Shown piece after piece: positions 7-1,269 of a DNA stretch of 1,285 nt. Source of the stretch: a phage. The notes beneath the pieces are model-generated. The model was not told where the DNA came from. It searched no databases and saw only the letters and a program-made list of their open reading frames with translations. How positions within the stretch are numbered: position 1 is the first letter of the stretch; the number at the start of each line of letters is the position of its first letter. The position numbers were made by a program, and so were the translations under genes. Location of the stretch: the sequence record M65239.1, one strand, 5' to 3'.

Positions 7-86
7 AATTCATCAGTGATAGTTACGTTACGCTGCGCCTTCTTTTTTTCCCTTCCAATATAAGAACTACGCAATCCGTTACTGGC

Positions 87-98: not shown

Positions 99-314
99 AT
101 GAAATCAATGGACAAAATCTCAACTGGCATTGCCTACGGAACATCTGCTGGTAGTGCGGGATACTGGTTTTTGCAGTGGTTGGATCAGGTCAGTCCGTCA
201 CAGTGGGCTGCGATTGGAGTGCTTGGAAGCCTTGTGTTGGGTTTTCTCACTTATCTGACAAATCTGTATTTCAAAATCAGAGAAGACAGACGAAAGGCTG
301 CGAGAGGTGAATAA
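99..314 (+). CDS. S: Class II holin (pinholin), phage 21 S-type; 71 aa with dual-start motif Met1-Lys2-Ser3-Met4 (long form antiholin, form starting at Met4 holin)
   Basis: ORF 99..314 (71 codons, stop TAA 312-314). The protein has two predicted transmembrane segments, a weakly hydrophobic Gly/Ala/Ser-rich TMD1 ([22 protein letters not shown]) and a more hydrophobic TMD2 ([23 protein letters not shown]), followed by a highly charged C-terminal tail ([13 protein letters not shown]). Two in-frame ATGs at 99 and 108 are separated by a Lys codon. GGAGG at 87-91 lies 7 nt upstream of the first ATG. The sequence matches my recollection of phage 21 S21; this was not verified by alignment. Confidence 0.9.
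304..307 (+). promoter_or_regulatory. Shine-Dalgarno (GAGG) for R, located within the 3' end of S
   Basis: GAGG at 304-307 is 6 nt upstream of the R ATG at 314. Together with the overlapping stop/start this suggests translational coupling. Confidence 0.4.
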
Positions 315-811
315 TGCCTCCATCATTACGAAAAGCCGTTGCTGCTGCTATTGGTGGCGGAGCAATTGCTATAGCATCAGTGTTAATCACTGGCCCAAGT
401 GGTAACGATGGTCTGGAAGGTGTCAGCTACATACCATACAAAGATATTGTTGGTGTATGGACTGTATGTCACGGGCATACAGGAAAAGACATCATGCTCG
501 GTAAAACGTATACCAAAGCAGAATGCAAAGCCCTCCTGAATAAAGACCTTGCCACGGTCGCCAGACAAATTAACCCGTACATCAAAGTCGATATACCGGA
601 AACAATGCGCGGCGCTCTTTACTCATTGCTTTACAACGTGGGTGCTGGCAATTTCAGAACATCGACGCTTCTTCGTAAAATAAACCAGGGCGATATCAAA
701 GGCGCATGTGATCAGCTACGTCGCTGGACATATGCTGGCGGTAAGCAATGGAAAGGTCTCATGACTCGTCGTGAGATTGAGCGTGAAATCTGTTTGTGGG
801 GTCAGCAATGA
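314..811 (+). CDS. R: SAR (signal-anchor-release) endolysin, T4-lysozyme-like muramidase family (phage 21 R21-type); 165 aa
   Basis: ORF 314..811 (stop TGA 809-811). The N-terminus has a short basic stretch (LRK) followed by a Gly/Ala-rich weakly hydrophobic segment ([20 protein letters not shown]) typical of a SAR domain. A lysozyme-type catalytic motif is present, with Glu35 (416-418), Asp44 (443-445) and Thr50 (461-463) in GLEG...[13 protein letters not shown]. The start ATG overlaps the S stop (TAATG, 312-316), and a GAGG at 304-307 is a plausible Shine-Dalgarno. Confidence 0.9.
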
Positions 812-1269
812 ACAGAGTAACCGCGATTATCTCCGCTCTGGTTATCTGCATCATCGTCTGCCTGTCATGGGCTGTTAATCATTACCGTGATAACGCCATT
901 ACCTACAAAGCCCAGCGCGACAAAAATGCCAGAGAACTGACGCTGGCGAACCGGGTAATTACTGACATACAGATGCGTCAGCGTGATGTTGCTGCGCTCG
1001 ATGCAAAATACACGAAGGAGTTAGCTGATGCGAAAGCTGAAAATGATGCTCTGCGTGATGATGTTGCCGCTGGTCGTCGTCGGTTGCACATCAAAGCAGT
1101 CTGTCAGTCAGTGCGTGAAGCCACGACTGCCTCCGGCGTGGATAATGCAGCCTCCCCCCGACTGGCAGACACCGCTGAACGGGATTATTTCACCCTCAGA
1201 GAGAGGCTGATCACTATGCAAAAACAACTGGAAGGAACCCAGAAGTATATTAATGAGCAGTGCAGATAG
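808..1269 (+). CDS. Rz: Rz, inner-membrane spanin (i-spanin) subunit; 153 aa
   Basis: ATG at 808 overlaps the R stop (ATGA, 808-811). The N-terminus [23 protein letters not shown] is a type II signal-anchor TMD. The remainder is charged and rich in Ala/Arg/Asp/Glu/Gln, as expected for a periplasmic coiled-coil, with Cys residues in HIKAVCQSV and near the C-terminus (NEQCR). It closely resembles lambda Rz from memory. The ORF track extends the frame to a GTG at 796, but the ATG at 808 is preferred. Confidence 0.85.
1015..1020 (+). promoter_or_regulatory. Shine-Dalgarno (AAGGAG) for embedded Rz1, inside the Rz coding sequence
   Basis: AAGGAG at 1015-1020 is 7 nt upstream of the Rz1 ATG at 1028. 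Confidence 0.55.
1028..1210 (+). CDS. Rz1: Rz1, outer-membrane lipoprotein spanin (o-spanin) subunit; 60 aa precursor, encoded entirely within Rz in the +1 frame
   Basis: ORF 1028..1210 is in frame +1 relative to Rz. The N-terminal signal peptide [20 protein letters not shown] ends in a lipobox (VVGC), with the lipid-modified Cys20 at 1085-1087. The mature 40-residue part is proline-rich (8 Pro) and contains one further Cys. A strong Shine-Dalgarno AAGGAG at 1015-1020 lies 7 nt upstream of the ATG. Confidence 0.85.

What the first reader, a model, noticed from the sequence alone, without database searches (positions are those of the whole stretch)
314..463. SAR domain and Glu-Asp-Thr catalytic triad in the endolysin
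The N-terminal segment (residues about 8-26, [20 protein letters not shown]) is very Gly/Ala-rich and weakly hydrophobic, characteristic of a signal-anchor-release domain that is exported by Sec, stays membrane-tethered and inactive, and is released on membrane depolarisation. Immediately downstream lie Glu35, Asp44 and Thr50 in a T4-lysozyme-like arrangement. In R21 the SAR domain is reported to refold into the enzyme body after release to complete the active site.
Basis: partly seen in the sequence, partly recalled or inferred. Interest (0 to 1): 0.45.

Follow-up and report, generated by a model that had tools for sequence, protein, structure and literature searches.

The report
Phage 21 SAR endolysin R21
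The stretch encodes the first 50 residues of the well-studied phage 21 lysozyme R21, namely its membrane-anchor-and-release segment and its Glu35/Asp44/Thr50 active-site residues, so the reading is correct but entirely textbook.

Summary
Window 314-463 is codons 1-50 of a 165-codon ORF (314-811). Its product is 163/165 identical to PDB 3HDE, the full-length endolysin R21 of phage 21. The whole window is the phage 21 S-R-Rz/Rz1 lysis cassette, 98.6% identical to OL657228, where this gene is annotated "SAR endolysin glycosyl hydrolase".

Residues 8-27 ([20 protein letters not shown]) are uncharged, 55% Gly+Ala, and less hydrophobic than the Rz transmembrane helix in the same window. Glu35-X8-Asp44-X5-Thr50 aligns column for column with T4 lysozyme E11/D20/T26 and P1 Lyz E42/C51/T57. 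The triad is kept in 119-121 of 121 homologues. The protein matches Pfam PF00959 at E = 1.3e-44.

An AlphaFold2 model superposes on full-length 3HDE over all 165 residues (TM 0.88), SAR helices included. Sec export without cleavage, tethering in an inactive state, release on pinholin-driven depolarisation and SAR-dependent refolding are taken from the literature. None of these was tested here.

Nothing is new. The only oddities are probable sequencing errors elsewhere in the window, for example L105-L106 where all relatives have F105-V106.

The parts
314..811 (+). R21 gene: SAR endolysin, a GH24 T4-type lysozyme of 165 aa. Its ATG overlaps the S21 stop codon by 1 nt (TAATG), and its stop overlaps the Rz ATG (ATGA).
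   Evidence: ORF list. PDB 3HDE E = 7e-111 with 163/165 identity. PF00959 E = 1.3e-44 over residues 34-156. Annotated 'SAR endolysin glycosyl hydrolase' in OL657228. Gene junctions read.
314..334 (+). Short N-terminal cytoplasmic tail MPPSLRK (residues 1-7), carrying the only positive charges before the SAR segment (R6, K7).
   Evidence: Charge list. L5 and R6 are at least 90% conserved. The cytoplasmic location is inferred from the positive-inside rule and from the SAR literature.
335..394 (+). SAR (signal-anchor-release) domain, residues 8-27, [20 protein letters not shown].
   Evidence: The best 19-residue hydropathy window in the protein is 8-26 (KD 2.11). The segment is 55% Gly+Ala and uncharged. 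It is less hydrophobic than the Rz TMD (1.99 vs 2.71). G16, A17, I20, L24 and G27 are invariant in 54 homologues. It aligns with the P1 Lyz SAR segment, sharing GGGAI...IT. It forms helices 3-15 and 17-26 with pLDDT 85-90 in the AF2 model. The SAR helices superpose on 3HDE.
416..418 (+). Glu35, the catalytic glutamate, equivalent to T4 lysozyme E11.
   Evidence: Aligned with T4L E11 and P1 Lyz E42. Kept in 119 of 121 sequences. Named as the catalytic Glu35 of R21 in PMC6024848.
443..445 (+). Asp44, second triad residue, equivalent to T4 lysozyme D20 and P1 Lyz C51.
   Evidence: Alignment. Kept in 121 of 121 sequences.
461..463 (+). Thr50, third triad residue, equivalent to T4 lysozyme T26.
   Evidence: Alignment. 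Kept in 121 of 121 sequences.
99..314 (+). S21 gene: pinholin S21-68 and antiholin S21-71, with a dual start at Met1 and Met4. It is the functional partner that depolarises the membrane and so releases R21.
   Evidence: PF04971 'Bacteriophage P21 holin S' E = 8.6e-36. 100% identical to the OL657228 antiholin / holin class II. Its role is taken from the literature.
808..1269 (+). Rz21 i-spanin, 153 aa. It is context only: the third step of lysis.
   Evidence: PF03245 E = 3.9e-53. Annotated i-spanin.
1028..1210 (+). Rz1 o-spanin lipoprotein, 60 aa, embedded in the +1 frame of Rz. Context only.
   Evidence: PF06085 E = 1e-18. Annotated o-spanin.

Best explanation
Window 314-463 encodes the N-terminal 50 residues of R21, the signal-anchor-release (SAR) endolysin of lambdoid coliphage 21.

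The mechanism runs as follows, with shown and inferred steps marked.

1. The short positively charged tail (R6, K7) and the weakly hydrophobic, Gly/Ala-rich helix 8-27 act as an uncleaved Sec signal anchor. The catalytic domain is placed in the periplasm, tethered to the inner membrane. This comes from the literature. The sequence features that fit it were shown here.
2. While tethered, the enzyme is inactive (literature).
3. The pinholin S21-68, encoded immediately upstream in the same window, triggers and collapses the proton-motive force. The SAR helix then leaves the bilayer (literature).
4. The freed SAR segment packs onto the GH24 body as two helices, and Glu35 takes up its catalytic position alongside Asp44 and Thr50. 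The result is an active T4-type muramidase that degrades the murein. The Rz/Rz1 spanins then disrupt the outer membrane. The packing of the SAR helices on the body is supported here by the match of the AF2 model to the full-length crystal structure 3HDE. The Glu35 repositioning is from Sun et al. 2009, known to me from memory of its abstract and from secondary sources; I could not read the primary paper.
For: [quoted passage not shown] The window is 98.6% identical to the phage 21 genome, with the gene order antiholin/holin - SAR endolysin - i-spanin/o-spanin.
- **Fold and triad.** PF00959 at E = 1.3e-44. E35/D44/T50 align with T4L E11/D20/T26 and P1 Lyz E42/C51/T57 and are conserved in 119-121 of 121 sequences.
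- **SAR features.** The segment is uncharged, 55% Gly+Ala, with KD 1.99 against 2.71 for the Rz TMD. It is conserved among homologues and resembles the P1 Lyz SAR segment.
- **Structure.** The AF2 full-length model has TM 0.88 and rmsd 2.8 A over 165 columns to 3HDE_A. Against truncated 3HDF the scores are TMq 0.59 / TMt 0.71 and rmsd 4.6 A.
- **Literature.** PMC6116005 covers the lack of cleavage, the inactive anchored state, release on PMF dissipation and SAR involvement in the activating refolding. [quoted passage not shown] PMC9239132 describes the SAR definition and release by the phage 21 pinholin. bioRxiv 10.1101/2025.11.12.688109 uses R21 as the reference SAR endolysin in complementation.
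Against: Nothing contradicts the identification. There are four limits.

- Export, tethering, release and activation were not and cannot be tested computationally here. They rest on papers, and the primary ones (Xu 2004, Park 2007, Sun 2009) are not held in the library.
- Ala-X-Ala motifs at residues 17-19 and 19-21 satisfy a naive signal-peptidase (-3,-1) rule. Sequence alone therefore does not exclude cleavage.
- PMC6024848 reports that Glu35 in 3HDE lies far from the equivalent Glu of homologues because of backbone distortion. The title of 4ZPU speaks of both active and inactive conformations in a full-length homologue. My AF2 model has pLDDT below 50 for residues 36-49. The geometry of the Glu35 loop is thus plastic and is not settled by my data.
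- The window's product differs from the crystallised protein at residues 105-106 (LL vs FV). This is most likely a sequence error.
Confidence: 0.97

Rival explanations
1. The N-terminal segment is an ordinary cleavable Sec signal peptide. Signal peptidase I would cut after Ala19 or Ala21 and release a soluble, constitutively active periplasmic lysozyme with no membrane-tethered stage.
For: The layout is n-region (R6, K7) followed by a hydrophobic stretch. Ala-X-Ala occurs at 17-19 and 19-21, and small residues satisfy the (-3,-1) rule at several positions.
Against: The Ala-X-Ala motifs sit inside the hydrophobic core, not in a polar c-region after it, and the hydrophobic run continues to residue 26. 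PMC6116005 states that the R21 and Lyz signals are not removed by signal peptidase. The full-length protein, residues 1-165, was crystallised with the N-terminal helices packed on the body (3HDE), and the AF2 model reproduces this. Residues 8-27 are strongly conserved, including G16, A17, I20, L24 and G27, which is more constraint than cleaved signal peptides usually show.
Confidence: 0.02
2. The segment is a permanent type II signal-anchor transmembrane helix. The enzyme would act while still anchored, or after holin-mediated hole formation, without leaving the membrane.
For: A 19-20-residue uncharged helix with KD of about 2.0 would pass most TM predictors.
Against: It is markedly less hydrophobic than the bona fide TMD of Rz in the same window: 35% vs 60% strongly hydrophobic residues, and KD 1.99 vs 2.71. 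The soluble full-length crystal structure has the segment folded on the protein body. The literature describes release from the membrane on depolarisation by a pinholin whose channels are too small to pass proteins.
Confidence: 0.01

Closest known systems
R21, endolysin of coliphage 21 (PDB 3HDE full-length, 3HDF residues 27-165; gene CPT_21_68 in OL657228)
   Same: It is the same protein and gene. Residues 1-104 and 107-165 are identical, and so is the gene context S21-R21-Rz/Rz1. Residues 1-50, the finding itself, are 100% identical at the protein level.
   Different: The window reads L105-L106 where the crystal structures, the OL657228 genome and all 81 related loci read F105-V106. The cause is a GC/CG swap at nt 628-629, almost certainly an error in the deposited sequence. 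There are four silent differences from OL657228 inside the SAR-coding stretch.
RrrD, endolysin of the E. coli K-12 defective prophage DLP12 (PDB 4ZPU)
   Same: About 98% identical over 165 aa, with the same SAR segment and triad. rrrD-like genes at 80% identity or more are found in 3934 of 5426 complete E. coli genomes.
   Different: A few substitutions (M98T, I159V, plus the 105-106 issue). It is prophage-borne. The title of its crystal entry reports both likely active and likely inactive conformations.
P1 Lyz (PDB 1XJT active, 1XJU inactive), the founding SAR endolysin
   Same: GH24 fold, an N-terminal Gly/Ala-rich SAR segment with a shared GGGAI...IT core, and a triad at the same spacing (fold match TMq 0.69). 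It is exported by Sec and released on depolarisation.
   Different: Only 32% identical overall in that alignment. The middle triad residue is Cys51, and regulation is by disulfide isomerisation involving a SAR-domain Cys. R21 has Asp44 and no Cys in its SAR segment, so it is regulated by steric or conformational repositioning instead.
T4 lysozyme (gene e) and P22 gp19, soluble GH24 endolysins
   Same: The same catalytic fold and the same E-X8-D-X5-T triad.
   Different: They have no N-terminal hydrophobic extension. The catalytic Glu is at residue 11 (T4) against 35 (R21). They are cytoplasmic and need a large-hole holin to reach the wall.

Membership tests
GH24 / Pfam PF00959 phage (T4-type) lysozyme | Significant match to the family profile above the curated cut-off | tested here: met
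   151.9 bits against a cut-off of 22.3, E = 1.3e-44. Residues 34-156 cover profile positions 3-125 of 125.
GH24 / Pfam PF00959 phage (T4-type) lysozyme | Glu-X8-Asp/Cys-X5-Thr catalytic triad aligned with T4L E11/D20/T26 | tested here: met
   E35/D44/T50 align with T4L E11/D20/T26 and P1 Lyz E42/C51/T57. They are conserved in 119-121 of 121 sequences. The motif definition is from PMC9239132 and PMC3556154.
GH24 / Pfam PF00959 phage (T4-type) lysozyme | T4-lysozyme-like three-dimensional fold | tested here: met
   The sequence is 163/165 identical to solved structures 3HDE and 3HDF. The AF2 model matches 3HDE at TM 0.88, and also matches P22, P1 and T4 lysozyme chains.
GH24 / Pfam PF00959 phage (T4-type) lysozyme | Muramidase activity dependent on the catalytic Glu | not testable with these tools
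   This needs an enzyme assay or E35 mutagenesis. Muralytic activity of R21 is reported in the literature.
SAR (signal-anchor-release) endolysins | N-terminal, uncharged, weakly hydrophobic segment of about 20 residues, rich in Gly/Ala/Ser/Thr, preceded by a short positively charged tail | tested here: met
   Residues 8-27 hold 11 Gly+Ala of 20 and 13 G/A/S/T of 20, with no charge between K7 and D32. R6 and K7 lie upstream. KD is 1.99 against 2.71 for the Rz TMD. The criterion is as worded in PMC9239132.
SAR (signal-anchor-release) endolysins | Signal segment not cleaved by signal peptidase I | not testable with these tools
   Sequence alone is ambiguous, because Ala-X-Ala occurs at 17-19 and 19-21. 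PMC6116005 states that it is not removed. Full-length residues 1-165 are present in crystal structure 3HDE.
SAR (signal-anchor-release) endolysins | Release from the inner membrane and activation on depolarisation or by a pinholin (called 'the definitive test' in PMC9239132) | not testable with these tools
   This is experimental. It is reported for R21 with S21-68. The cognate pinholin gene lies immediately upstream in the window.
SAR (signal-anchor-release) endolysins | In the soluble form, the SAR segment folds onto the catalytic body | tested here: met
   The AF2 model aligns with full-length 3HDE over all 165 columns (TM 0.88). The fit to SAR-deleted 3HDF is poorer (rmsd 4.6 A over 132 columns). 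This rests on a prediction plus existing crystal structures, not on a new experiment.
Disulfide-regulated SAR endolysins (P1 Lyz type) | Cys in the catalytic triad and a Cys in the SAR domain for disulfide isomerisation or caging | tested here: not met
   R21 has Asp44 at the middle triad position and no Cys in residues 1-51, whereas P1 Lyz has C13 and C51. R21 therefore belongs to the non-disulfide class, regulated by steric or conformational change.

The most novel reading that the evidence does not exclude
The least ordinary reading not excluded is that the Glu35-Asp44 loop switches between active and inactive geometries on its own, partly independently of SAR docking. Three observations point that way: AF2 pLDDT below 50 for residues 36-49, the 4ZPU title reporting both conformations in a full-length protein, and PMC6024848's remark that Glu35 is displaced in 3HDE. 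On this reading, SAR release would be necessary for activation but not sufficient. Even so, it would refine a published mechanism for a published protein, and the DLP12 structure entry already hints at it.
Probability: 0.15. Interest if true: 0.25.

Novelty: already known. Interest (0 to 1): 0.05.

Why it matters
It matters only as a correct annotation. R21 is the reference example of an endolysin controlled by membrane topology rather than by passage through a holin hole, and the window holds the complete pinholin/SAR-endolysin/spanin cassette. Nothing here opens a new question. The practical points are two. First, this deposited sequence probably carries errors, so residues 105-106 of R21, residue 49 of Rz and residues 33-34 of Rz1 should be taken from the modern genome or the PDB entries. 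Second, signal-peptide predictors may mislabel SAR domains as cleavable.

Tried and rejected
- **Primary papers.** I tried to read Sun et al. 2009 (PMID 19881499 / PMC3075974), Xu et al. 2004 (PMC404059), Park et al. 2007 (PMC2168629), Young 2014 (PMC4012431), Kuty et al. 2010 (PMC2953681) and Cahill & Young 2019 (PMC6733033). None is held. The mechanistic statements therefore rest on secondary open-access papers and PDB entry titles.
- **Cleavable signal peptide.** Considered because Ala-X-Ala motifs exist. Rejected because of their position inside the hydrophobic core, the literature and the full-length crystal structure.
- **Permanent TM anchor.** Considered and rejected (see rival explanations).
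- **Overlapping ORFs.** Mechanical ORFs overlap 314-463 on both strands: 277-390 (-), 307-405 (+), 383-568 (-) and 399-539 (+). I did not examine them further, because the R21 frame accounts for the stretch.
- **Rfam.** A scan of the whole window at E up to 1 found nothing.
- **Hairpin by the S21 Shine-Dalgarno.** The RNA hairpin at 75-89 is not distinguishable from shuffles (z = -1.05).
- **Second AF2 job.** I did not run a SAR-deleted form, because the truncated crystal structure 3HDF already exists and the tool returns no coordinates from which Glu35 geometry could be measured.
- **Homologue depth.** The homologue search returned only close relatives among its best 120 (76% identity or more). 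Conservation statistics therefore cover the R21/RrrD clade, not all GH24 enzymes.

Full report
**What is in the window.** The 1285-base window starts with GAATTC and ends with ATCGAT. It carries four genes on the + strand:

| Gene | Coordinates | Length | Note |
|---|---|---|---|
| S21 | 99-314 | 71 aa | |
| R21 | 314-811 | 165 aa | |
| Rz | 808-1269 | 153 aa | counted from the ATG |
| Rz1 | 1028-1210 | 60 aa | embedded in the +1 frame of Rz |

Pfam assigns them to PF04971 'Bacteriophage P21 holin S' (E = 8.6e-36), PF00959 'Phage lysozyme' (1.3e-44), PF03245 'Rz lysis protein' (3.9e-53) and PF06085 'Rz1' (1e-18). Megablast against phage genomes puts the window at 98.6% identity on Escherichia phage 21 (OL657228). 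There the same genes are annotated antiholin S21-71 / holin class II S21-68, 'SAR endolysin glycosyl hydrolase', i-spanin and o-spanin. The window is therefore the phage 21 lysis cassette.

**Check of the observation.** Coordinates 314-463 are exactly codons 1-50 of the endolysin ORF. The quoted peptide [20 protein letters not shown] is present. It is 20 residues long, so it spans 8-27 rather than '8-26', which is a trivial slip. It holds 7 Ala and 4 Gly (55%), and 65% Gly/Ala/Ser/Thr. It has no charged residue between K7 and D32, and R6-K7 lie just upstream.

- The most hydrophobic 19-residue window of the protein is 8-26 (Kyte-Doolittle 2.11).
- The segment is clearly less hydrophobic than the Rz transmembrane helix in the same window: mean KD 1.99 vs 2.71, and 35% vs 60% strongly hydrophobic residues.
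- Glu35, Asp44 and Thr50 are present with the spacing E-X8-D-X5-T. This is the motif quoted for canonical T4-type lysozymes in PMC9239132 and PMC3556154.
- In a three-way alignment with sequences taken from annotated records, E35/D44/T50 fall in the same columns as T4 lysozyme E11/D20/T26 and P1 Lyz E42/C51/T57.
- Among 120 homologues of 76-99% identity plus the query, E35 is kept in 119 of 121 sequences and D44 and T50 in all 121.
- The SAR segment itself is strongly conserved. G16, A17, I20, L24 and G27 are invariant in a 54-sequence alignment.

[quoted passage not shown] It is equally close to 3HDF (truncated, residues 27-165) and about 98% identical to 4ZPU (DLP12 RrrD). Residues 1-50, the finding itself, are identical to the crystallised protein. 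An AlphaFold2 model built from the 54-sequence alignment has mean pLDDT 75.8. It predicts helices at 3-15 and 17-26 with pLDDT 85-90. It superposes on 3HDE_A over all 165 columns (TM 0.88, rmsd 2.8 A), so the SAR helices are packed on the enzyme body as in the soluble full-length crystal form. The fit to truncated 3HDF is worse (TMq 0.59 / TMt 0.71, rmsd 4.6 A). More distant fold matches are other GH24 muramidases, P1 Lyz, P22 lysozyme and T4 lysozyme.

**How it works.** The steps below are from the literature and were not tested here.

- The same review states that the TMD keeps the endolysin anchored to the energised membrane in an inactive state.
- It states that release is potentiated by the PMF-dissipating action of the cognate holin.
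- It also reports that the S21 pinholin forms channels of about 2 nm or less, too small to pass an endolysin.
- PMC9239132 gives the operational definition of a SAR domain and names release by a pinholin as the definitive test.
- bioRxiv 10.1101/418723 refers to 3HDE as the active conformation of the SAR endolysin R21.
- A recent preprint uses R21 as the reference SAR endolysin in complementation assays.

The statement that SAR refolding repositions one triad residue (Glu35) is what I recall of the abstract of Sun et al. 2009. I could not read that paper. R21 lacks the Cys residues that P1 Lyz uses for disulfide control: it has Asp44 in place of Cys51 and no Cys in residues 1-51. It therefore belongs to the non-disulfide class of SAR endolysins.

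**Caveats.**
1. A naive (-3,-1) rule finds Ala-X-Ala at 17-19 and 19-21. These motifs lie inside the hydrophobic core, not after it.
2. The catalytic loop 36-49 has pLDDT below 50 in my model. The 4ZPU entry title speaks of 'likely active and inactive conformations'. PMC6024848 remarks that Glu35 of 3HDE lies far from the equivalent Glu in homologues. The loop is evidently plastic, and I cannot measure its geometry with these tools.

**Comparison and novelty.** This is not a relative of R21. It is R21, a protein whose genetics, biochemistry and crystal structures were published between 1991 and 2009. Closely related genes (rrrD and others) occur in 3934 of 5426 complete E. coli genomes. GH24 homologues occur in 3638 phage records. 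The finding is correct and already known, so interest is low.

**Noticed in passing.** The window differs from OL657228 at 11 substituted positions plus small indels in bases 22-55. Seven of those positions carry bases found in none of the 64-81 related loci:

| Position | Window vs relatives | Effect |
|---|---|---|
| 628-629 | GC vs CG | R21 L105-L106 instead of F105-V106 |
| 676 | T vs C | silent |
| 952-953 | CG vs GC | Rz R49 instead of A49 |
| 1125 and 1128 | G and T vs C and C | Rz1 R33-L34 instead of P33-P34 |

Adjacent-base swaps of this kind are typical read errors in old sequences. The PDB sequences and the homologue consensus also read F105-V106. By contrast, the four silent differences inside the SAR-coding stretch (361, 364, 370, 379) are positions where the window carries the common allele, found in 77 of 81 loci, and OL657228 carries a unique one. 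Rfam finds nothing in the window. A small hairpin next to the S21 Shine-Dalgarno is not significant.

Noticed in passing
window 628-629 (R21 codons 105-106); also 676: The window reads GC where phage 21 genome OL657228 and all 80 related viral loci read CG. This gives L105-L106 instead of the F105-V106 found in PDB 3HDE, 3HDF and 4ZPU and in the homologue consensus. T676 (silent) is likewise unique to the window. An adjacent-base swap suggests an error in the deposited sequence rather than a real variant.
   Followed up: yes
window 952-953 (Rz codon 49) and 1125/1128 (Rz1 codons 33-34): There is a CG vs GC swap (Rz R49 vs A49), and G/T vs C/C at 1125/1128 (Rz1 R33-L34 vs P33-P34, which breaks a PPPP run). 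The window's bases occur in none of 64 collinear related loci. These are probably further sequence errors.
   Followed up: yes
window 22-55: There are several 1-5-base indels relative to OL657228 in the T/C-rich stretch upstream of S21. The window has 5 extra bases at 22-26, and the genome has single extra bases at three places.
   Followed up: partly
window 361, 364, 370, 379 (third positions of codons 16, 17, 19, 22 in the SAR segment): Four silent differences from OL657228 cluster within 19 bases. The window haplotype (A,A,T,A) is in 77 of 81 related loci, and OL657228's (G,T,C,T) is unique. This suggests a small mosaic patch or stock difference in the sequenced phage 21 isolate, with no protein change.
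   Followed up: partly
window 314-811 versus E. coli genomes: Genes at 80% identity or more to R21 (annotated rrrD, with essD and rzpD neighbours) occur in 3934 of 5426 complete E. coli genomes, with up to 6 places per genome. 32 of the places are on plasmids.
   Followed up: partly
window 335-394 versus L082:178-732 (P1 lysA/Lyz): The SAR segments of R21 ([15 protein letters not shown]) and P1 Lyz (AAGGGAICAIAVMIT) align with a shared GGGAI...IT core, although the proteins are only about 32% identical overall. This suggests common ancestry of the SAR domain rather than independent acquisition.
   Followed up: no
window 419-460 (R21 residues 36-49): The AF2 model has pLDDT below 50 exactly over the loop and hairpin between Glu35 and Thr50, while the SAR helices and C-terminal lobe are confident. 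The 4ZPU title mentions active and inactive conformations, and PMC6024848 says Glu35 of 3HDE is displaced relative to homologues. The low confidence may also reflect the shallow alignment of close relatives.
   Followed up: partly
window 99-110 and 75-91: S21 has the dual-start arrangement (Met1 ... Met4) that gives antiholin S21-71 and pinholin S21-68. A small hairpin (75-89) abuts the GGAGG Shine-Dalgarno, but the fold energy of the 60-135 stretch is not different from shuffles (z = -1.05).
   Followed up: partly
window 99-314, S21 residues 9-30: TMD1 of the pinholin ([22 protein letters not shown]) is even less hydrophobic (mean KD 0.04, 50% G/A/S/T) than the R21 SAR segment.
   Followed up: no
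L083:507-998 (- strand; T4 gene e in NC_000866): The T4 reference genome translation reads ERLRL at residues 11-15, whereas I recall EGLRL (Gly12) from the T4 lysozyme structural literature. I saw this only while aligning and it is irrelevant to the finding.
   Followed up: no
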